In this document: positions 43,636 through 61,107 of the stretch, in pieces
Numbering within the stretch: position 1 is the stretch's first letter
How the letters are laid out: every line of letters begins with the position of its first letter
From: Candidatus Parcubacteria bacterium
GTDB taxonomy: Bacteria; Patescibacteriota; Minisyncoccia; Phycocordibacterales; UBA918
Assembly: GCA_046050355.1 (NCBI GenBank)
Contig: JBJOPW010000005.1
Span: 2,503-66,502, forward strand
Reading direction: 5' to 3'
DNA length: 64,000 bases
Position numbers and translations under genes: made by a program
The notes under the pieces: model-generated
The model's input: the letters and a program-made list of their open reading frames with translations, nothing else
The model's database searches: none
Told to the model about the DNA's origin: nothing

Positions 43636-44211
43636 ATGGCCAAACGACAGAGACAAGTCTTCTCCCTCGTCGCACTACTCACCGTGCTTATGAGTGTCGG
43701 CATCGGTGCGCTTTTTTTTGCCGAATATTTACTCCGTCACCCTGATCTCCAAGCACAGATCGCCTCGCTCGGGTACGCAGGCGTGGTTGTCATCGCCACC
43801 ATCGCTGGTCTCAATATTATTCTCCCTATCCCCGCGGTAACCTTTACTCCTATTTTTGTAGCGGCTGGCCTCAGCCTCCCAGGAATCATTTTTGCATTGA
43901 CTATTGGCACATTACTCGCTGACTTTCTCGGGTACTTATTTGGTCGCATTAGTCGTGATACCCTTACGACAAAATATCCAAAAATAATTCACCGCCTGAG
44001 AGACATACACAAACACCATCGCCAGTGGCTACTCCCAATAATTTTTTTGTTTGCCGCTTTTGTGCCACTACCAAATGAAGCGCTCATATTGCCACTGGCA
44101 GTACTTGGCATCTCGTGGAAAAAAATGGCACTGCCGCTATTTCTTGGTAACCTAGTCAACCAAACTATTTACGCGTACGGCATGCACACTGTCTTTCGAC
44201 TGTTGTTTTAA
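43636..44211 (+). CDS. DedA/VTT (SNARE-associated) family membrane protein
   Basis: 191 aa. NIILPIPAVTFTPIFVAAG is typical of the VTT domain. Confidence 0.65.
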   Translation: MAKRQRQVFSLVALLTVLMSVGIGALFFAEYLLRHPDLQAQIASLGYAGVVVIATIAGLNIILPIPAVTFTPIFVAAGLSLPGIIFALTIGTLLADFLGYLFGRISRDTLTTKYPKIIHRLRDIHKHHRQWLLPIIFLFAAFVPLPNEALILPLAVLGISWKKMALPLFLGNLVNQTIYAYGMHTVFRLLF

Positions 44212-44233
44212 TAATAGGCACTGTAAAAGCCCC

Positions 44234-44248
44234 TGTCCGCGCTCTAGG
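44234..44248. repeat. 15-bp direct repeat (TGTCCGCGCTCTAGG) of the tRNA-Ile 3' end; partner copy at 44589-44603 lies inside the tRNA
   Basis: The exact 15/15 match lies 355 bp from the tRNA copy. The geometry is att-site-like. Confidence 0.7.
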
Positions 44249-44590
44249 TTAAAACAGTTTGGGAAACTGTTTCAAAACCTTGACTACCGTTTCAGGAATA
44301 CTTGAACTGAAACGGTGACAAGGTGTACTGCGACTGTAAGTCGGCGAACCTATCTCCTTACAGGAGCAGTACACCATTTGGACTTTTCTGTTCGCACTCT
44401 CCAGAAAATTCTCAAATGGTCCTAAAACAGTTTCCCAAACTGTTTTAGCCTTTCGAGTGAGCCAGTTTGGGAAACTGGCGCAAGACTCGTCTAGTATCTT
44501 TTGAGCCGAGCGAAAAAAGAGACAGACGAGTAGACAGCTCCTGTAAGGAGTCAGTCGAATGCTCTTGAAAATGTTCTTTTGCGTTTTTTG

Positions 44591-44664
44591 TCCGCGCTCT
44601 AGGATTCGAACCTAGGACCTTTCGAGTATCAGTCGAATGCTCTAGCCAACTGAGCTAAGCGCGG
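44591..44664 (-). tRNA. tRNA-Ile (anticodon GAT)
   Basis: Manual fold. Acceptor CCGCGCT/AGCGCGG. D-arm GCTC-AGTTGGCTA-GAGC. Anticodon stem TTCGA/TCGAA with loop CTGATAC. T-arm CTAGG-TTCGAAT-CCTAG. Discriminator A. Confidence 0.85.
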
Positions 44665-44847
44665 ACAAAAGAAACAAAAAGAACATTTTAGCCAACCCTA
44701 TCATCTCATAAATATCGATGATTCGCTTCGCGACCGGAAAAATTGCTATCCGCAATTTTTAGCTCGCACATACAGGGGCTTCTAATTCCCTCTGTTTGTG
44801 TGCGGTACTATAGCAGATAATAATAAAAAATGTAAGGGTGCTGAGGC

Positions 44848-45170
44848 GCGGACTTGGTCACGAATAATTTTCTGGTAGAAAATTTTCTCGACCCCGCCTC
44901 ATAGTCGCAGAGCGACATATTCCGGCTTTCAAGTCCTCACGAAAGCAAAGCAGTTTGCTTTCTTCCTCGTCCCAACTTTCGCTTTGCTCAATTTGTGCCC
45001 AGGAGAGGACTTGGTCACGAATAATTTTCTGGTAGAAAATTTTCTCGACTCCGCCTCATAGTCGCAGAGCGACATATTCCGGCTTTCAAGTCCTCACGAA
45101 AGCAAAGCAGTTTGCTTTCTTCCTCGTCCCAACTTTCGCTTTGCTCAATTTGTGCCCAGGAGAGGACTTG
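44848..45170. repeat. Two tandem 158-bp direct repeats, each beginning with a tRNA-Leu 3'-end fragment (GAGAGGACTTG) and containing three hairpins
   Basis: The units (approximately 44848-45006 and 45007-45164) are about 99% identical. A third partial unit merges into the tRNA-Leu 3' end. Confidence 0.8.
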
Positions 45171-45218
45171 AACATTACATGTTCAGTACAGGTTACTGGT
45201 ATTTTATTGAATACATAG

Positions 45219-45300
45219 TGCTGGAGAGAGGACTTGAACCTCCACACCTTGCGGCATACGCACCTGAAGCGCACGTGGCTACCAATTACACCACTCCAGC
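45219..45300 (-). tRNA. tRNA-Leu (anticodon CAG), long variable arm
   Basis: Manual fold. Acceptor GCTGGAG/CTCCAGC. D-arm GGTG...CCAC. Anticodon loop TTCAGGT. Long variable arm TGCCGCAAGGTGTGG. T-loop TTCAAGT. Confidence 0.8.
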
Positions 45301-45339
45301 ACTATATCTTCAATTTATAAAATACCGATTAACCTCCTG

Positions 45340-45450
45340 CCATAATCTCCCAGATTATGGCAGCCTCCACACCTTGCGGTATACGCACCTGAAGCGCCGT
45401 TCGACAATATCCCATACTGTCTCACCTACCAATTACACCACCTAGGCAAT
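45340..45450 (-). pseudogene. Degenerate tRNA-Leu copy with two insertions
   Basis: The D-arm, anticodon arm and variable arm are near-identical to tRNA-Leu(CAG). The acceptor no longer pairs. An approximately 22-nt insert lies after the D-arm, and a 27-nt palindrome (CTGCCATAATC...GATTATGGCAG) replaces the T-arm. Confidence 0.5.
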
Positions 45451-45788
45451 GTCCGAGATTGTACAATAAAGATGTAATAAAACAAAGTACACCATAGAAA
45501 ATTCGCTTGAACGCCAGCTTTTTAATGCGATATATCGCACTAAAAAGCTGGCAATAGTAGGTGATTTAGTAACAAAAAAGCTGCCGGGACCAGATATCCA
45601 GGCAGCGGGAAGCGGCAGATTCCGCCTCCTTACATCAATGTGTATGTACCCCATACTAGACACATGAGCACAAAAGCCCAAAAGCCCAAGTGTGCCAGGG
45701 ATAGTGGCGGGCGAGATCAATCACCCGCCAGTGGAGAGGTTCGCGGTTCAACCGCTCCCTCCCCTCCACCAAACTCCCACGCTCTGGT

Positions 45789-46060
45789 CTACCTTTCGGC
45801 AAGGTAGACCTCCTCGCTGATCGCAAAGCGCGTCGGGAGGGAACCGCAGGGCAGTACCTCCTCCCCGTTCAAGCCGGTCGGCTGGATTTCGTAGAGGCAC
45901 TCCCCACGATGCATGACCGCGTAAGGCTGCATCACCAAGAAATAGAACCCGCCAAACGGCAGAACGGCGCACAGAGCGCTCCAGGCCAGTGCCGAGCGGA
46001 TGCGTCCACGCTGCGACCGAGGGATGTTCAACCTGTACGGGCCATTATCAAACTTTTCCA
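45789..46060 (-). CDS. Small single-TM protein (about 90 aa) on a GC-rich (about 60%) island; start at MEKFDNG preceded by GAGGAG
   Basis: ORF track 45789-46076. The start is trimmed to the Met that has a strong SD 8 nt upstream. A minus-strand terminator lies at 45578-45604 plus a T-run. Confidence 0.5.
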
Positions 46061-46159
46061 TACTCTGTCTCCTCAATACTGCTCACTCTTTGGTGAGTCA
46101 GTGTTGTGCGACACCATGTCACACCTGGTAAAATTATACACAAAAATGGCTAAAAGTCA

Positions 46160-46675
46160 ATGATTCCCCAATTCGCACGTGAAAAAAGCCCGAAAATGCG
46201 CTATAGTATGCGCATGTCAATGGGACTTGCATTACTCACGGTTTTGGTGATTGTTATCGGCATCAGTATGGCGTCGAGCCCAAGCGGTCTACAGGATGTC
46301 TTGCCGGCCTTGCTTGGCTTTTTTAACTCATACCTCATACCATTCCTCCTTGGTATAGCATTTCTCGTTTTTATCTGGAATGCGATTCGCTTCTTTGTCA
46401 TTAATGGCGCCACGGACGAAGGTCGCGAGAATGCCAAAAACCTTGCCCTCTATAGTCTTGGTGCTTTTATTTTTGTACTTTCGTTTTGGGGTATCATCAA
46501 TATTTTCACAAACGGTCTCGGCCTCGATAATTGTAGTAATGATGTCGTACCGGACTATCTGAGCGACGATTATAAGAGCCTAGCCCCCTGTACTTCTCCA
46601 CGCCCACAGCCAAACCCAAACAATACCAATAACTCAGGTTCTTCCGGTGGTCTTCCACCGCTCATTGATACATAA
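46160..46675 (+). CDS. Small membrane protein with TrbC/VirB2-pilin-like topology and Pro/Asn/Gly-rich tail
   Basis: 171 aa with a signal-like TM and two further hydrophobic helices. Family assignment is tentative. Confidence 0.45.
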   Translation: MIPQFAREKSPKMRYSMRMSMGLALLTVLVIVIGISMASSPSGLQDVLPALLGFFNSYLIPFLLGIAFLVFIWNAIRFFVINGATDEGRENAKNLALYSLGAFIFVLSFWGIINIFTNGLGLDNCSNDVVPDYLSDDYKSLAPCTSPRPQPNPNNTNNSGSSGGLPPLIDT

Positions 46676-46919
46676 TCAGCCAGACACAACAAAACCACCA
46701 AATGATCTTGTCCTTTGGTGGTTTTGTATCATCACAGCACATATTTATATGTATACAAAAAGCAATCGCTTCGTCTGCTCTTTTGTCTTATCCTTTGGCC
46801 TAGGTCTTTCCCTAGTTGTCTGATACCACTTCAGAGTGTTCTGTATCGTCTACTCATTAGGTAGTCAATTGAGCTACCTAATATCGACCAATTAGCCGTT
46901 ATGTGCAATCTTGTTACCA

Positions 46920-48396
46920 AGATGCAACGACGTGTCCAATTGGAATTAATCCACGACCAGCTTCCGCTAGCCGTGCCTTGTTACGACTTACTCCCTGTCA
47001 TCGAGCTTACCGTAGGACCAGATAAACTGGCACTTCGGGCACTCCCGACTCCCTTGAGTTGACGGGCGGTGAGTACAAGGCTCGGGAACGTATTCACCGT
47101 GACGATGCTGATTCACGATTACTAGCGATTCCGACTTCATGAGGTCGAGTTGCAGACCTCAATCCGAATTGAGGATGGTTTTGGGGATTTGCTCCACCTT
47201 ACGGTATTGCGTCCCATTGTACCACCCATTGTATCACGTGTGCAGCCCAAGGCATCAAGGGACATGCTGACCTGGCGTCATCCTCACCTTCCTCTCCCGT
47301 GAGGGAGCAGTCTCGCCTGACACTTGTAACAGGCAACGAGGGTTGCGTTCGTTTCCCCACTTAAGGGAACAGCTCAAGCCACGAACTGACGACGGCCATG
47401 CATCACCTGCTATACACCCTCGAAGGCTTCCCGAGTTTCCCCGGGCGTGCAGTATAGTTTCTAGCCTTGGTAAGGTTTTTCGCTTAGCTACGAATTAAGC
47501 CACATGATCCACCGCTTGTGCGAGCCCCCGTCTATTCCTTTGAGTTTTAAGCTTGCGCTCGTACTACCCAGGCGGTCTGTTTAACGTGTTAACTTCGCCA
47601 CAGAGAGGGTCGATACTCCCTATAGCCAACAGACAGCGTTTAGGGCGTGGACTACGCGGGTATCTAATCCGCTTCGCTACCCACGCTTTCGTGCCTCAGC
47701 GTCAATAGAGTCCCAGCAAGCTGCCTTCGCATTTGGTATTCCCCTCGATATCAACGGATTTCACCCCTACACCGAGAGTTCTGCTTGCCTCTGACTTATT
47801 CTAGTTATACCGTTTCGGATGCGATTCCGGGGTTGAGCCCCGGGATTTAACACCCGACTAATATAACCGCCTACGCACCCTTTACGCCCAGTAAATCCGG
47901 ATAATGCTTGGGGCCTCTGTATTACCGCTCCTGCTGGCACAGAGTTGGGAGCCCCTTATTCATGAGGTAACGTCAATAAACTTCCTCCCTCATAAAAGGT
48001 GTTTACGTCCCGAGGGACTTCATCCACCACGCGGCGTCGCTCCGTCAGACTTTCGTCCATTGCGGAAGATTCTCGACTGCAGCCTCCCGTAGGAGTATGG
48101 ACCGTGTCGCAGTTCCATCGGTGGGGGTCAGGCTCTCACCTCCCCTAGCCGTCGTAGCCTTGGTAAGCCGTTACCTTACCAACAAGCTGATAGCCCGCAG
48201 GCCGTTCCAAGAGCGATAAATCTTTACCCCGAAGGGACCATCAAGTATTATTCGACCTTTCGGCCGGTTATCCCTGACTCTTGGGTACGTACCTACGTGT
48301 TCCTACCTCGTCTGCCATGAATCTAAATTCATTCGACTTGCATGCCTCATCCACGCCGCCAGCATTCATCCTGAGCTAGGATCAAACTCTAATTAA
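46920..48396 (-). rRNA. rrs: 16S ribosomal RNA (complete, about 1.47 kb), not followed by 23S within the window
   Basis: 5' end TTAATTAGAGTTTGATCCTAGCTCAGGATGAATGCTGGCGGCGTG (reverse complement of 48350-48396). 3' region AAGTCGTAACAAGG...GGATTAATTCC near 46920. Confidence 0.9.
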
Positions 48397-48932
48397 AGAC
48401 AGGTACTAGATGTAAACATCTATGTATCTGCGCCGGAGAATATAGTGTCGCGTGTACTTATGTCGCGACGATTCAACCGACTATTTACCTAAGGATAAGA
48501 CAAAAGAATATTCGATATTCGATTGCCTTATTGTGCTGACCCCGTTAGAAGATAATGTCGAAAGTAACTAAGTTACCAGATAACCACGCAATGATGCGTA
48601 TGCCCTTCTAACGGGGCTGATGCATACCATTGTTCACATTTTAAAAAACATGAAAAATAATATACGTACCTACTACTGTTTGGGACAGTAGTAAGTGATA
48701 TTGACCAACCGTATTTCAGACTGATGCTCACAAACAAATCCCCGAACCAGAGGTTCAGATGCTTCTTCGTGAGGTTGTCAACAAACAGTGTCCCCTTTGA
48801 AAGCGCTAGCCTTCAAAGAAGGCTTAGAATTACTTCCAACGAACAGTGCGAGCATTATACAGATATTGAAAATAAATGCAAGCGTTTCATGGGCAATACC
48901 CTAACTAGCCACAAGGACTAGCGTATCTCCAG

Positions 48933-59457: not shown

Positions 59458-59616
59458 AAATAATGTTCTTATCGTACCAGAGCTAAAAACCCTGGCAAGG
59501 CTTTGTGATCGCTATTATAACTAAAGTACGGTATGCTTAGTTGTATTGAGTGCAACATGATCAAAATAGCCATATTTTTGAACCTATAATTATACTTTAC
59601 GACCTATCTGATTGTA

Positions 59617-59700
59617 TGACACATCTACCACCAAAGAAGGTTTTATTTTTGATCACGAGGAGCTACTGGGGTGAGAAATGGGGTGGGGTAAAGAATAATG
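59617..59700 (+). pseudogene. Relic N-terminal fragment of a GT4 gene
   Basis: It encodes MTHLPPKKVLFLITRSYWG, matching MENKPPKKVLFLITKSNWGG of the downstream GT4. The reading frame then decays. Confidence 0.4.
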
Positions 59701-59961
59701 GGTATTATTCTTTACGAGGTTGCCAGCTACTTTTGAAAAAAGTAGCGACAACCTGTACTGGTCCTGTAAGGACCCATTTCGCAAGACTTGCCCAGCTATC
59801 TTGTAAATACTTGAAACAAAATAGCGAGCGAGTGAACAGCGTCTGTAAACAAGTTTGCTTTTACTGCACTCGTTCGATATCTGTATGCCAGCATCCAGAT
59901 ACGAACATCGTTTGTAAAAGTAAGACGGGGAAAGCCGCCCCACAACTAAACTCTCTATCGT

Positions 59962-61107
59962 ATGGAAAATAAACCACCTAAAAAAGTACTTTTTCTCATC
60001 ACTAAAAGTAACTGGGGCGGGGCGCAACGTTACGTCTACGACCTTGCGACGAGCCTTGATCGTAGACAGTTTGAGCCGGTAGTAGCGCTAGGTGGTACTG
60101 GCACACTTGTCGATATGCTCCATCACGCCGGTATTCGCACGATTACAATCACGAGTCTAGAACGAGATGTGAACGCCAAAAAAGAACTGGCGTTGGCACG
60201 CGAGCTATATCATATCTACCGTACCGAACAACCCGATATACTTCATCTCAATAGCTCAAAAGCTGGCGCGATGGGGGCTCTTATCGGTCGCCTCGCTCGT
60301 GTACCGCGAATTATTTTTACCGCACATGGCTGGGCTTTCAATGAAGATCGACCATATTGGCAACGACTGATCATTAAGGTAATACATTACCTTACCGTAT
60401 TCCTCGCACACCACACTATCGCTGTCTCTTCCGGAATGAAGGCAGAAATGGGCTGGTTTGGGATACAGTCGAAAATGTCGGTTATCAATCCCGGCCGATC
60501 AATCGGCGCCATGTTTACACACACTGAAGCGCGGGACAAAATTGTCGAACTCTTCCCAGTCCTATCGCCGTATCGCCATGACCCGTGGATAGTGTGTGTA
60601 GCAGAGCTTCACCCAATCAAACGACACCAGGGTTTATTTGAGGCAATTCGTAGTCTTACTGCCATCAATCCACATATTCGACTCCTCTGTTTTGGTGACG
60701 GTCAATTGCGTGAATCACTCTCAGCGTGGGTTACTGCTCATGGCATGTCTGAACATATATTTATACTCGGCAGTCTCCATGAGGCGGCCCGCTTCCTCAA
60801 AGCATTTGATATGTTTGTGCTCGCCTCCAAATCTGAATCATATGGTTATGTGCTTCATGAAGCTGGATTAGCTGGCATACCAATAGTAGCCACCAATGTG
60901 GGCGGTATTACAGACATTATTACACCCCATAAAACTGGCTTGTTGGTACCCGTTGATGATGCCCGCGCACTGGCACAAGCCGTAGCAACGTTACTGAGCG
61001 ATCAGACACTAGCCCAAGCTTTACGTGCAGCCAGTTATACCGCACTGGCAGAACGAACTGTTGCCAATATGACTGCGGCCACGACACGACTCTATCTCCA
61101 GCACTAG
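59962..61107 (+). CDS. Family 4 glycosyltransferase
   Basis: 381 aa. FVLASKSESYGYVLHEAGLAGIPIVATNVGG. Confidence 0.85.
   Translation: MENKPPKKVLFLITKSNWGGAQRYVYDLATSLDRRQFEPVVALGGTGTLVDMLHHAGIRTITITSLERDVNAKKELALARELYHIYRTEQPDILHLNSSKAGAMGALIGRLARVPRIIFTAHGWAFNEDRPYWQRLIIKVIHYLTVFLAHHTIAVSSGMKAEMGWFGIQSKMSVINPGRSIGAMFTHTEARDKIVELFPVLSPYRHDPWIVCVAELHPIKRHQGLFEAIRSLTAINPHIRLLCFGDGQLRESLSAWVTAHGMSEHIFILGSLHEAARFLKAFDMFVLASKSESYGYVLHEAGLAGIPIVATNVGGITDIITPHKTGLLVPVDDARALAQAVATLLSDQTLAQALRAASYTALAERTVANMTAATTRLYLQH

What the first reader, a model, noticed from the sequence alone, without database searches (positions are those of the whole stretch)
44234..44603. tRNA-Ile(GAT) flanked by a 15-bp direct repeat of its own 3' end enclosing a hairpin-dense 340-bp segment with three conserved palindromes
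TGTCCGCGCTCTAGG occurs in the tRNA 3' end (44589-44603) and again at 44234-44248. That is the classic footprint of site-specific integration into a tRNA gene. The 340 bp in between has no ORF. It holds three copies of the palindrome AACAGTTT-NNN-AAACTGTT (44253-44271, 44422-44448 and 44461-44479) and two long stems (44288-44319 and 44321-44376). The palindrome is conserved in sequence, which is operator- or recombinase-site-like. A second short fragment of the tRNA (CAGTCGAATGCTCT at 44548-44561) is also present. This may be a decayed or miniature integrative element, or an unannotated structured RNA next to the tRNA.
Basis: seen in the sequence. Interest (0 to 1): 0.65.

Follow-up and report, generated by a model that had tools for sequence, protein, structure and literature searches.

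The report
Broken tRNA-Ile gene packed with insertions
The 340-bp hairpin-rich stretch is the tail of an old tRNA-Ile gene. Three copies of a small, previously undescribed structured repeat have split it open, and a working tRNA-Ile copy nested inside it has replaced it. The same pattern recurs at the neighbouring tRNA-Leu gene and at a protein-coding gene.

Summary

The 340 bp is not one element bounded by a repeat. On the minus strand, one resident tRNA-Ile(GAT) gene (the "shell", 44235-44773) is split into six colinear pieces. These cover 65 of 75 tRNA positions, 61 of them identical to the live tRNA.

The interruptions are:
- a tRNA-Ile-specific three-hairpin "D element" in the D-loop;
- the live tRNA-Ile, with 23-nt inverted flanks;
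- three copies of a ~95-nt three-hairpin "E element": in the anticodon loop, inverted next to the variable loop, and in the T-loop.

The 15-mer is the shell's 3' end.

One relative (L056) has the empty site. Others have tandem or nested versions.

E is a dispersed repeat with strong covariation. It has no Rfam match and only chance hits in viral contigs. It also sits, polymorphically, inside a glycosyltransferase gene, next to a displaced copy of that gene's first 58 nt.

Best reading: serial insertions of small non-autonomous modules that arrive with a replacement for the gene part they displace. The enzyme is unknown.

The parts
44807..44836 (-). Promoter-like site CTTACA-18-TATAGT (TG-extended -10) that would drive the whole tRNA-Ile unit
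   Evidence: The same CCCTTACA...CTGCTATAGTA block precedes the unit in all relatives.
44774..44806 (-). Outer leader, orthologous to the leader of the uninterrupted tRNA-Ile of L056. AGAAGCCCCU pairs with the outer trailer.
   Evidence: Window 44772-44856 aligns to L056 at 93%. The pairing appears in the fold.
44761..44773 (-). Shell piece 1: 5' acceptor strand plus 5' D-stem of the broken resident tRNA-Ile gene (GTATGTGCGAGCT)
   Evidence: Relatives have GTCCGCGCGAGCT here.
44700..44760 (-). D element: three-hairpin insertion (P1, P2, P3) in the D-loop of the shell. Found only at tRNA-Ile loci.
   Evidence: Model R2 hit at 44690-44773, 105 bits. On the D-element alignment (11 sequences), 96% of cells pair, 11 of 17 pairs have double changes, and 0 of 500 shuffles reach this. 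Pair-type counts give 12 G-U against 1 A-C (my tally).
44690..44699 (-). Shell piece 2: D-loop (AGGGTTGGCT)
44667..44689 (-). Inner leader of the live tRNA. It is the inverted repeat of the inner trailer and extends the acceptor stem.
   Evidence: Inverted repeats I3 and I6; helix in the fold
44591..44664 (-). Live tRNA-Ile(GAT), nested in the D-loop of the shell
44566..44589 (-). Inner trailer (AAAAAACGCAAAAGAACATTTTCA)
44551..44565 (-). Shell piece 3: 3' D-stem, 5' anticodon stem and loop up to A35 (AGAGCATTCGACTGA)
   Evidence: (D16)
44455..44550 (-). E1: E element in the anticodon loop of the shell.
   Evidence: Model R1, 91 bits; map
44449..44458 (-). Shell piece 4: A37 through the 3' anticodon stem and variable region (ACTCGAAAGG)
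44354..44450 (+). E3: E element in the opposite orientation, between the variable region and the T-stem of the shell.
   Evidence: Model R1, 93 bits on the + strand. Homologous reversed copies sit at the same tRNA position in L048 and L016.
44345..44353 (-). Shell piece 5: 5' T-stem and start of the T-loop ((A)TAGGTTCG)
44247..44343 (-). E2: E element in the T-loop of the shell, after UUCG. E2 and the inverted E3 pair with each other, which gives the long stems I1 and I2.
   Evidence: Model R1, 87 bits. Orthologous copies in L001, L005, L007, L014 and L061. Stems.
44235..44248 (-). Shell piece 6: 3' T-stem plus 3' acceptor strand (CCTAGAGCGCGGAC).
   Evidence: It is contiguous with the trailer and the DedA gene end, which align to L056.
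44217..44234 (-). Outer trailer (AGGGGCTTTTACAGTGCC), shared with L056. It pairs with the outer leader. The convergent DedA-like gene stops at 44211.
59674..59853 (-). Two more E copies at a site with no tRNA. E_B (59686-59773) sits inside the f-hairpin loop of E_A (59774-59853, with its tail running to about 59674).
   Evidence: Model R1, 55 and 42 bits; sequence
59616..59673 (+). Displaced remnant of the first 58 nt of the glycosyltransferase CDS, abutting the 3' end of E_A. The working gene starts at 59962.

Best explanation
**What it is.** The feature is the downstream part of a resident tRNA-Ile(GAT) gene that insertions have split open, and that a working tRNA-Ile copy nested inside it has functionally replaced.

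Reading the minus strand from the conserved promoter, the old gene (the 'shell') survives as six colinear pieces. Between the pieces lie, in order:
1. a tRNA-Ile-specific three-hairpin D element in the D-loop;
2. the live tRNA-Ile, with a 23-nt leader and trailer that are inverted repeats of each other;
3. E1 in the anticodon loop, after A35;
4. E3, inverted, after the variable region;
5. E2 in the T-loop, after UUCG.

E is a ~95-nt module: hairpin d with a UUAC loop, CWGU, a long hairpin e, CUUGCG, hairpin f with a CCC loop, and a CUCAC tail. The 15-mer is the shell's 3' end.

**How it most likely works (inferred).**
- E modules are small non-autonomous insertion or integration modules, moved in trans by an enzyme not yet identified. 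That enzyme probably reads their folded shape, because stems covary while loops and linkers stay constant.
- They land in conserved genes. They persist because each insertion comes with an intact replacement for what it displaces: a whole tRNA, a tRNA 3' end, or the first 58 nt of a coding sequence with a new upstream region.
- This is the same logic as integrase-mediated integration that carries a spare gene end.
- Repeated events at one hotspot gave the nested layout.

**At the RNA level (inferred).** The locus is one transcript. The live tRNA is released by the usual tRNA end-processing enzymes, perhaps helped by cleavage of the long leader-trailer helix. The hairpin array is left over and may incidentally stop read-through into the convergent DedA gene.

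**Shown:** the anatomy, the colinearity, the empty and filled alleles, the dispersal of E, the covariation, and the diverged (probably foreign) origin of the replacement copies.
**Inferred:** mobility in trans, the mechanism, and the RNA processing.
For: **Colinear shell.** The six pieces rebuild 65 of 75 tRNA positions in order, 61 identical to the live tRNA.

**Empty site.** The window's outer flanks (44146-44248 and 44772-44856) align to the two sides of an uninterrupted tRNA-Ile in L056 (sequence).

**E is a discrete repeated module.**
- Model R1 finds three copies here (87-93 bits, one on the opposite strand) and two more at 59.7 kb.
- It finds stand-alone intergenic copies in L048 (1421-1505) and L021 (6752-6841).
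- It finds copies in the anticodon loop (L002, L011, L059) or the T-loop (L001, L005, L007, L014, L061) of tRNA-Ile shells in relatives.

**Covariation.**
- E: 95% of cells paired, 15 of 17 pairs with changes on both sides, 0 of 500 shuffles as high; slid controls give 34-41% paired.
- D: 96% paired, 11 of 17 pairs, 0 of 500 shuffles.

**The 3' part is dispensable.** L010, L051 and L058 keep the D element and the live tRNA but have no E copy and no 3' shell.

**A replacement copy accompanies the insert.**
- L063 and L064 encode the identical GT4 protein. L063 carries a 398-bp E-bearing insert after CDS nt 58.
- The displaced 58 nt in L063 is identical to the L064 allele. The working copy differs at 2 synonymous sites and has an unrelated upstream region.
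- In the window, the displaced and working copies differ at 19 of 58 nt, with 9 synonymous-only codon differences. They therefore diverged while both were still coding.

**Same nesting at tRNA-Leu.** The shell pieces are colinear with L005's intact gene and flanks. The live tRNA-Leu lies in the T-loop and has a different acceptor stem.

**Fold.** An unconstrained fold of the 586-nt predicted transcript recovers the nested layout: outer stem, D hairpins, inner stalk with a cloverleaf, and the E hairpins. z = -13.6.
Against: - No recombinase, transposase or reverse transcriptase was found among the 10 ORFs tested next to the two insertion sites, nor in the gene tables of related loci.
- E has no terminal inverted repeats, no fixed-length target duplication and no common target motif. 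The insertion chemistry is therefore unknown.
- E copies within one genome are quite divergent, which is unlike a recent burst of a mobile element.
- E shows no clear G-U versus A-C asymmetry (8 versus 6, my tally). Whether the hairpins matter as DNA or as RNA is unresolved.
- The D element is conserved, is specific to tRNA-Ile and is G-U rich on the tRNA strand. That fits a host-useful RNA better than a parasite.
- The short shell pieces stay identical to the live tRNA. Pure decay does not explain this.
- The presence/absence allele at the GT4 gene could spread by ordinary homologous recombination and does not by itself prove active transposition.
Confidence: 0.55

Rival explanations
1. Classic integrase footprint. 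One or more ordinary tRNA-targeting integrative elements, with a tyrosine integrase, integrated at the tRNA-Ile 3' end and then lost almost everything by deletion. What remains is the att arms (the E hairpins) and the displaced tRNA 3' end.
For: - A direct repeat of the tRNA 3' end is present. It is 27 nt long in L001 and bounds the whole unit there.
- A 38-nt repeat running from the tRNA-Leu T-loop to past the 3' end flanks an E-like unit in L013.
- The empty site exists in L056.
- The E-bearing insert in GT4 carries a spare gene end with synonymous differences. This is a hallmark of integrase-mediated integration into genes (the general principle is from my own knowledge of phage 21/e14 at icd).
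Against: - Pieces of the 5' half of the tRNA lie upstream of the live tRNA, and all pieces are colinear without duplication.
- E sits at three or more different positions inside the tRNA, in both orientations, and inside another E.
- Inserts are consistently 100-400 bp in independent lineages, not random deletion remnants.
- The hairpin stems covary, which is not expected for double-stranded arm sites.
- No integrase was found nearby, and the motif scans of viral contigs gave only chance hits.
Confidence: 0.17
2. Functional tRNA-like RNA. The shell, with its D element and expansions, is a genuine structured non-coding RNA: a tRNA-Ile mimic closed by an acceptor-like stem, in the manner of tmRNA or bacterial Y RNAs. 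It is co-transcribed with tRNA-Ile, and the E hairpins are tolerated or useful expansion segments.
For: - The D element is found only at tRNA-Ile loci, always at the same D-loop position, from relatives with 94% down to 38% DedA identity. It has strong covariation and a G-U bias on the tRNA strand.
- The shell's acceptor strands follow the local tRNA-Ile sequence in each lineage.
- Short shell pieces remain identical to the tRNA.
- The whole transcript is predicted to fold into a closed nested structure.
Against: - The whole shell is missing in L056, L057, L012, L013 and L020.
- The shell's composition differs even between the window and its 94% relative L001.
- Anticodon and T arms are destroyed in different ways in different lineages.
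- E also occurs at sites with no tRNA and in both orientations.
- No Rfam family matches and ARAGORN finds no tmRNA.
Confidence: 0.2
3. Intron-containing tRNA gene. The insertions are introns (group I or archaeal-type) that are removed to give a second functional tRNA-Ile.
For: - E1 lies after position 35 of the anticodon loop. Position 35/36 is where self-splicing group I introns were recently found in Patescibacteria tRNA-Asn and tRNA-Asp (PMC13011429).
- All insertions sit in loops.
Against: - There is no group I or II intron match even at E = 10.
- E is only ~95 nt.
- The 5' exon would end in A, not U.
- Removing the model-defined element leaves a 6-nt anticodon loop lacking U36, and a 4-nt T-loop.
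- I saw no bulge-helix-bulge pairing at the junctions (by eye).
- One copy is inverted.
- In many lineages the shell lacks whole arms.
Confidence: 0.03

Closest known systems
Site-specific integration with gene-end replacement (tRNA-targeting genomic islands and prophages; phage 21/e14 in icd)
   Same: - The insert is bounded by a copy of the target gene's end.
- The gene stays functional because the insert brings its own version.
- That version differs at synonymous or compensated positions.
- Targets are conserved genes (tRNA-Ile, tRNA-Leu, a conserved NWGG motif of a glycosyltransferase).
- Empty sites exist in relatives.
   Different: - Inserts are 100-400 bp with no integrase or any other ORF.
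- Several different positions inside one tRNA are used, in both orientations, and inserts nest in one another.
- A whole tRNA, not just its 3' end, can be the replacement, and it then lies inside the old gene.
- The conserved module is a set of covarying hairpins.
Intervening sequences (IVS) of bacterial rRNA genes, including the short unclassified insertions in rRNA genes of candidate-phyla-radiation (CPR) bacteria (PMC11270868)
   Same: - ~100-200-nt extended stem-loops inserted at loops or helix tips of stable-RNA genes.
- Sporadic distribution, no ribozyme, no ORF.
- Common in reduced genomes.
   Different: - The host gene here is a tRNA and is destroyed, with function supplied by a nested copy.
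- An rRNA stays functional after RNase III excision of its IVS.
- E also occurs between and inside protein-coding genes.
Small dispersed structured repeats of bacteria (MITEs, REP/REPIN, Correia, BOX, RUP elements; review PMC3184786 was listed but not read)
   Same: - ~100-nt non-coding, multi-copy, hairpin-forming.
- Found in intergenic regions in both orientations.
- Inverted pairs form long hairpins.
- Copies nest in each other.
   Different: - No terminal inverted repeats.
- No short fixed target duplication.
- No REP-type conserved tetranucleotide.
- Copies are divergent with compensatory changes.
- Insertions are associated with duplicated or replaced gene ends.
Group I introns at position 35/36 of Patescibacteria tRNA genes (PMC13011429)
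   Same: Same phylum. An insertion in the anticodon loop next to position 35. Missed by annotation tools.
   Different: No intron model match, a third of the size, wrong splice-site nucleotides, and excision would not restore the loop.
Disrupted tRNA genes of archaea (multi-intron, split and permuted tRNAs; PMC3978253 was listed but not read)
   Same: tRNA genes interrupted at several non-canonical positions (D-loop, anticodon loop, T-loop).
   Different: This is a bacterium. No bulge-helix-bulge junctions were seen, the pieces cannot be joined into a working tRNA, and an intact copy lies alongside.

Membership tests
tRNA-targeting integrative element footprint (tyrosine-integrase att sites) | Direct repeat of the tRNA 3' end bounding the inserted DNA | tested here: met
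   The 15-mer occurs at 44234-48 and 44589-603 only. The repeat is 27 nt in L001.
tRNA-targeting integrative element footprint (tyrosine-integrase att sites) | Empty site (a single intact tRNA between the same flanks) in a related genome | tested here: met
   L056. Plain arrangements also in L057, L012, L013 and L020.
tRNA-targeting integrative element footprint (tyrosine-integrase att sites) | Integrase or recombinase gene in or beside the insert | tested here: not met
   No ORF of 50 aa or more lies in 44212-45085. Pfam on 10 flanking ORFs shows housekeeping genes only. No recombinase Pfam appears in the relatives' gene tables.
tRNA-targeting integrative element footprint (tyrosine-integrase att sites) | Only the part of the tRNA 3' of the crossover is duplicated, and nothing tRNA-derived is added upstream of the live gene | tested here: not met
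   The 5' acceptor, D-stem and D-loop pieces of the shell lie upstream (44690-44773). All pieces are colinear and not duplicated.
MITE | Many dispersed copies of a short non-coding element | tested here: met
   Five clear copies in 64 kb at two loci, and copies in unrelated intergenic regions of L048 and L021.
MITE | Terminal inverted repeats and a short target-site duplication of fixed length | tested here: not met
   The element's ends (CUCCUUACAG... and ...CUCAC) are not inverted repeats. Flanks show no common short duplication. Where duplications occur they are 15-58 nt gene ends.
REP/REPIN | A 20-40-nt imperfect palindrome with a conserved 5' tetranucleotide, often as inverted doublets | tested here: inconclusive
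   The inverted doublet E3/E2 forms a long hairpin. However, the unit is a 95-nt three-hairpin module and no REP-type motif was seen.
REP/REPIN | A cognate RAYT (Y1 HUH) transposase gene in the genome | not tested
   Only 64 kb of the genome is available, and only 10 ORFs were scanned.
rRNA-type intervening sequence (IVS) | Insertion at a loop or helix tip of a stable-RNA gene that forms an extended stem-loop | tested here: met
   The insertions lie in the D-loop, anticodon loop, variable region and T-loop.
rRNA-type intervening sequence (IVS) | Excised by RNase III without ligation, with the host RNA staying functional | not testable with these tools
   Needs RNA end mapping. A tRNA cut in the anticodon loop would not be functional (established knowledge).
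Group I intron in a tRNA anticodon loop | Match to the group I intron covariance model | tested here: not met
   No Intron_gpI hit at the gathering threshold or at E <= 10.
Group I intron in a tRNA anticodon loop | Precise removal restores a 7-nt anticodon loop, and the 5' exon ends in U | tested here: not met
   The junction is CUGA|...|ACUCGAA. U36 is missing and the 5' exon would end in A35.
tmRNA or other described tRNA-like RNA (Rfam) | Detection by ARAGORN (tmRNA) or by any Rfam family | tested here: not met
TIGR arrays / IS110 bridge RNA | Tandem ~36-nt or stem-loop units with box C/D motifs next to a Nop-domain (Tas) or IS110 recombinase gene | tested here: not met
   There is no periodic array and no adjacent protein gene. 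The GAUGAG-like strings are not conserved between E copies.

The most novel reading that the evidence does not exclude
E (and perhaps D) are the recognition structures of a so far undescribed class of trans-mobilised mini-cassettes in candidate-phyla-radiation (CPR) bacteria, recognised by their structure. They would home into essential, conserved genes (tRNA loops, conserved codons of enzymes). They would make themselves hard to lose because the only working copy of the gene, or of the gene end, is the one they bring. In effect this is gene replacement as an addiction strategy, and it produces 'tRNA inside tRNA' genes.
Probability: 0.25. Interest if true: 0.8.

Novelty: new variant of a known kind. 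Interest (0 to 1): 0.6.

Why it matters
- It explains a puzzling hairpin-dense spacer as a layered record of insertions.
- It defines two structured sequence families (E and D) that are absent from Rfam and have strong covariation.
- Within one 64-kb window of a candidate-phyla-radiation (CPR) genome, two tRNA genes and one protein-coding gene have been overwritten in the same way: the old gene is broken and a diverged copy is supplied.
- If E modules are truly mobile, they are a new handle on how genes are exchanged and replaced in these tiny genomes, which carry few classical mobile elements. They also point to an unidentified recombination activity that may read nucleic-acid shape.
- Practically, such shells can confuse tRNA and gene callers and inflate 'intergenic' space in CPR assemblies.

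Tried and rejected
- **Rfam.** Gathering threshold on the whole window, E <= 10 on 44150-46950, and gathering threshold on seven related loci. Only tRNAs and 16S were found.
- **Viral contigs.** Scans for the shell-specific junction AGAGCATTCGACTGAV, the D-loop motif, the f-hairpin plus tRNA piece, and the E3 d-hairpin gave only chance hits in coding regions, or nothing. No phage link was found.
- **Group I intron.** Considered because of PMC13011429. Rejected on model, size and junctions.
- **Archaeal bulge-helix-bulge introns.** I could write no such pairing at the junctions (by eye).
- **Hammerhead-like cores (CUGAUGA...GAAA).** The similar-looking strings are not conserved between copies.
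- **T-box-like specifier in the D-element P3 loop.** Rejected because loop positions 4 and 9 covary (A-U, G-C, C-G), so they form an apical pair and not a codon.
- **tmRNA-like reading.** No ARAGORN tmRNA and no G3-U70 pair.
- **TIGR arrays / bridge RNA.** Rejected.
- **IS200/IS605-type insertion next to a fixed tetranucleotide.** The left flanks differ (CTGA, TTCG, CTAT, GGGT and others).
- **Long target-site duplication as the origin of the 58-nt repeat.** Rejected because the two copies differ mostly at synonymous sites and the repeat starts exactly at the ATG.
- **Integron attC.** Considered only by eye. No R'-box-like GTTRRRY end was seen, and this was not formally tested.
- **Literature.** Six searches found no description of nested or shattered tRNA genes, or of such repeats, in CPR bacteria.
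Full report
**1. The observation**

The tRNA-Ile(GAT) gene lies at 44591-44664 on the minus strand (ARAGORN; Rfam tRNA 72 bits). A tRNA-Leu(CAG) gene lies at 45219-45300 and a 16S rRNA gene at 46939-48397, both also on the minus strand.

- The 15-mer TGTCCGCGCTCTAGG occurs only at 44234-48 and 44589-603, even with two mismatches allowed. Shuffles expect 0.05.
- The palindrome AACAGTTTNNNAAACTGTT occurs only at 44253-71 and 44426-44. A variant lies at 44461-79.
- The long stems exist (inverted repeats I1 and I2).
- The 378-nt spacer folds far better than shuffles, z about -10.6 and -11.2 on the two strands.
- There is no ORF of 50 aa or more between 44212 and 45085, and no Rfam family even at E = 10.

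**2.

Read on the tRNA's strand, the spacer holds these pieces in tRNA order:
- AGAGCATTCGACTGA: 3' D-stem to A35 (44565-51);
- ACTCGAAAGG: A37 to the variable region (44458-49);
- (A)TAGGTTCG: 5' T-stem and the start of the T-loop (44353-45);
- CCTAGAGCGCGGAC: 3' T-stem and 3' acceptor strand (44248-35).

The missing 5' part lies upstream of the live tRNA:
- GTATGTGCGAGCT: 5' acceptor strand and 5' D-stem (44773-61);
- AGGGTTGGCT: D-loop (44699-90).

Joined together, the six pieces align to 65 of the 75 tRNA positions in order, with 61 identities. The live tRNA, flanked by a 23-nt leader and a 24-nt trailer that are inverted repeats of each other (I3 and I6), sits between pieces 2 and 3. That places it inside the D-loop of a second, broken tRNA-Ile gene, which I call the shell.

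**3. Relatives: same neighbourhood, different states**

The neighbouring DedA-like membrane protein (43636-44211, + strand) has homologues at 94-34% identity in MAGs whose source names include Ca. Pacebacteria and Ca. Parcubacteria. The related loci fetched with them are labelled Ca. Paceibacteria, Parcubacteria, Kaiserbacteria and 'Patescibacteria group'. The window itself is 100% identical to a MAG protein labelled 'RLZZ360, Candidatus Parcubacteria'.

Contigs around these homologues, together with nine contigs found by a D-element motif in metagenomes, keep tRNA-Ile next to the DedA gene. In most of the loci that extend far enough, tRNA-Leu, a T4SS pilin gene and 16S follow. Three states occur.

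- **Plain.** A single tRNA-Ile with no extra pieces: L056 (DedA 75% identical), L057, L012, L013, L020.
- **Tandem.** The tRNA-Ile is followed directly by a shell: L001 (94%), L002-4, L005/6, L007/8, L059, L062, L021.
- **Nested.** The live tRNA lies inside the shell, as in the window: L011, L014, L023, L046-L048, L050, L052. L010, L051 and L058 are also nested but have lost the shell's 3' part.

The decisive comparison is with L056. The window's 44146-44248 (the DedA gene end, the trailer and the 15-mer) and 44772-44856 (the leader and the promoter, 93% identical) align to the two sides of L056's uninterrupted tRNA-Ile. The shell is therefore the gene that occupies this position in L056. About 520 bp in the window separate its two ends.

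**4. What fills the shell: two kinds of structured module**

*E element*

Alignment of the inserted stretches from many loci gives a ~95-nt E element (alignment A3) with this layout:
- hairpin d, N4-5 with loop UUAC;
- linker CWGU;
- long hairpin e;
- CUUGCG;
- hairpin f, usually with CCC in the loop;
- tail CUCAC.

In the 17 aligned copies, 95% of cells in d and e form pairs. Fifteen of 17 pairs show changes on both sides, no shuffle of 500 reaches this, and sliding the partners drops pairing to 34-41%.

- E1 at 44455-44550 (minus strand), in the anticodon loop after A35;
- E3 at 44354-44450 on the plus strand, that is inverted, between the variable region and the T-stem;
- E2 at 44247-44343 (minus strand), in the T-loop after UUCG.

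The GGG centre of the first and the CCC centre of the second follow from E3 being inverted. The long stems I1 and I2 are E3 pairing with E2.

Relatives carry E at several places:
- in the anticodon loop (L002, L011, L059);
- in the T-loop (L001, L005, L007, L014, L061);
- inverted after the variable region (L048, L016);
- with the live tRNA at the tip of hairpin e (L052, L048, L014, L023).

*D element*

The insertion in the D-loop is a different module (alignment A2). Hairpins P1 and P3 flank a small P2, and P2 and P3 are closed by a short CC/GG helix.

- 96% of cells pair, 11 of 17 pairs have double changes, and 0 of 500 shuffles reach this.
- G-U pairs outnumber A-C 12 to 1 on the tRNA's strand (my tally of the pair types). 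This points to selection at the RNA level on that strand.
- Its model (R2) hits once per tRNA-Ile shell (twice in L052) and nowhere else convincingly in 277 kb.
- It is retained even where the shell's 3' half has been lost (L010, L051, L058).

**5. E is a dispersed repeat and not a tRNA-specific structure**

- R1 also finds two copies at 59686-59853 in the window. One sits inside the f-hairpin loop of the other, in the spacer between divergent sugar-transferase and glycosyltransferase genes.
- It finds stand-alone copies in ordinary intergenic regions of L048 (1421-1505) and L021 (6752-6841).
- E-like units abut the tRNA-Leu 3' end in L013, L005, L059 and L062.
- With all filters off, the window has five clear copies.

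**6. E-bearing inserts come with a spare copy of what they displace**

The 59.7-kb site gave a clean filled/empty pair. Contigs L063 and L064/L065 encode the identical glycosyltransferase (protein P0048). Their upstream spacers are 567 bp and 169 bp.

- L063 has a 398-bp insert after nucleotide 58 of the coding sequence (TGGGGTG^G).
- On one side of the insert, the original first 58 nt, identical to the L064 allele, remain as a remnant joined to the 3' end of an E element (R1 88 bits).
- On the other side, a second copy of the 58 nt, with two synonymous differences and an unrelated upstream region, is fused in frame to the rest of the gene.
- The window carries the same insertion. There the remnant (59616-59673) and the working copy differ at 19 of 58 nt. 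Nine codons differ only synonymously and five differ by amino acid.

The two copies therefore diverged while both were coding. The simplest reading is that one came from another lineage. The repeat is not a target-site duplication.

The same logic holds at tRNA-Leu. The window's shell pieces (45463-26, 45397-64, 45173-12) are colinear with L005's intact GCCCAGG-type tRNA-Leu and its flanks. The live tRNA-Leu (45219-45300), which has a different acceptor stem (GCUGGAG), lies inside the shell's T-loop.

**7. Explanation**

*Shown:*
Three of them are copies of a dispersed structured repeat.
- A working tRNA-Ile is nested in it.
- Relatives show empty, tandem and nested states.
- The 3' part is dispensable.

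*Inferred:*
- E modules are small non-autonomous insertion modules moved by an enzyme supplied in trans.
- Their stems covary while their loops and linkers stay fixed, so the folded shape is probably what is recognised.
- They survive in essential genes because each event supplies a replacement (a whole tRNA, a tRNA end or a coding-sequence start). This is the principle known from integrases that target tRNA genes or icd (established knowledge).
- Repeated events at a hotspot produce the nested layout.

At the RNA level, the conserved promoter at 44836-44807 would give one precursor. Its unconstrained predicted fold reproduces the nesting: outer leader/trailer and shell acceptor stem, D hairpins, an inner stalk carrying a cloverleaf, and the E hairpins (z = -13.6). 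Release of the tRNA by the ordinary processing enzymes is assumed, not shown.

*What does not fit neatly:*
- no mobility gene was found;
- there are no terminal repeats and no common target motif;
- E copies within one genome are divergent;
- E shows no strand bias in wobble pairs (8 G-U against 6 A-C, my tally);
- the D element looks like a host-useful RNA;
- the short shell pieces remain identical to the live tRNA.

For these reasons I keep two serious rivals. One is decayed classic integrase footprints. The other is a functional tRNA-like RNA whose loops tolerate parasites.

**8. Comparison with known systems, and novelty**

The closest known systems are:
- integrase-mediated integration with gene-end replacement;
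- rRNA intervening sequences, including the short unclassified insertions of CPR rRNA genes (PMC11270868);
- small dispersed repeats (MITE, REP).

This locus fails defining tests of each of the first and third. It has no integrase, and it has tRNA-derived pieces upstream of the live gene. It has no terminal inverted repeats and no fixed target duplication. For the second, RNase III excision cannot be tested here.

It is not a group I intron of the kind just described at position 35/36 in Patescibacteria (PMC13011429). Six literature searches found no description of nested or shattered tRNA genes, or of these modules.

I rate it a new variant of a known kind, with interest about 0.6. The anatomy is solid and unusual. 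The mechanism is open.

Noticed in passing
window 45112-45463 (minus strand): tRNA-Leu shows the same nesting. Pieces of a GCCTAGG-type tRNA-Leu lie at 45463-26, 45397-64 and 45173-12. They carry hairpin insertions, for example CTGCCATAATCTGGGAGATTATGGCAG. They are colinear with the intact gene of L005 and surround the live GCTGGAG-type tRNA-Leu (45219-45300), which sits in the shell's T-loop with 13-bp complementary flanks (I4).
   Followed up: partly
window 44837-45173: Two 157-bp tandem repeats lie at 44838-44994 and 44995-45151 (97% identical). Read on the minus strand, each unit starts with a tRNA-Leu T-loop-to-3'-end fragment (CAAGTCCTCTCCTGGGCAC). A last, different fragment (CCAAGTCCGCGCCTCAGCACC, 44857-44837) abuts the tRNA-Ile promoter. 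Related units in L005, L013, L059 and L062 score as E-like and sit antisense to tRNA-Leu.
   Followed up: partly
window 59616-59961; L063 versus L064/L065/L067: An E-bearing insert lies inside the 5' end of a GT4 glycosyltransferase gene, with a displaced 58-nt remnant of the coding sequence. Presence/absence alleles encode the identical protein. One E copy is nested in the f-hairpin loop of another.
   Followed up: yes
window 44566-44689 and 45206-45314; relatives: Every tRNA examined at these loci is flanked by a leader and trailer that extend the acceptor stem by 10-45 bp. In plain genes the extension is AGAAGCCCCU/AGGGGCUUUU. This suggests an unusual precursor-processing or termination signal.
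   Followed up: no
L002-L004, L010, L011, L057-L059, L062, L012, L013: The whole tRNA-Ile unit, promoter included, is inverted relative to the DedA gene when compared with the window, L001, L005, L007 and L056.
   Followed up: no
L002 7170-7280, L010 4500-4620, L011, L014, L059: After a strong 21-bp terminator hairpin there is a further module: GTCCGAGACGG...GTGACGAC followed by AAAAGACGCAAAAG. It looks like yet another decayed tRNA-Ile shell with the usual trailer.
   Followed up: no
window 45513-45552: A near-perfect 40-bp palindrome (arms 95% complementary) with no spacer (GCCAGCTTTTTAATGCGATA/TATCGCACTAAAAAGCTGGC) lies between the tRNA-Leu shell and the pilin gene.
   Followed up: no
window 46160-48397: The 16S rRNA gene (46939-48397, minus strand) has no 23S or 5S gene anywhere in the 64-kb window. 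A plus-strand T4SS-pilin-like ORF (46160-46675) separates it from the tRNAs. The rRNA genes are therefore unlinked here, and in L002, L005 and L007.
   Followed up: no
L052 3760-4360: This is the cleanest example of the architecture. It reads: promoter, shell 5' end, D element, E element in the anticodon loop with the live tRNA-Ile at the tip of hairpin e, shell 3' half. A second complete shell with its own D element follows in tandem.
   Followed up: partly
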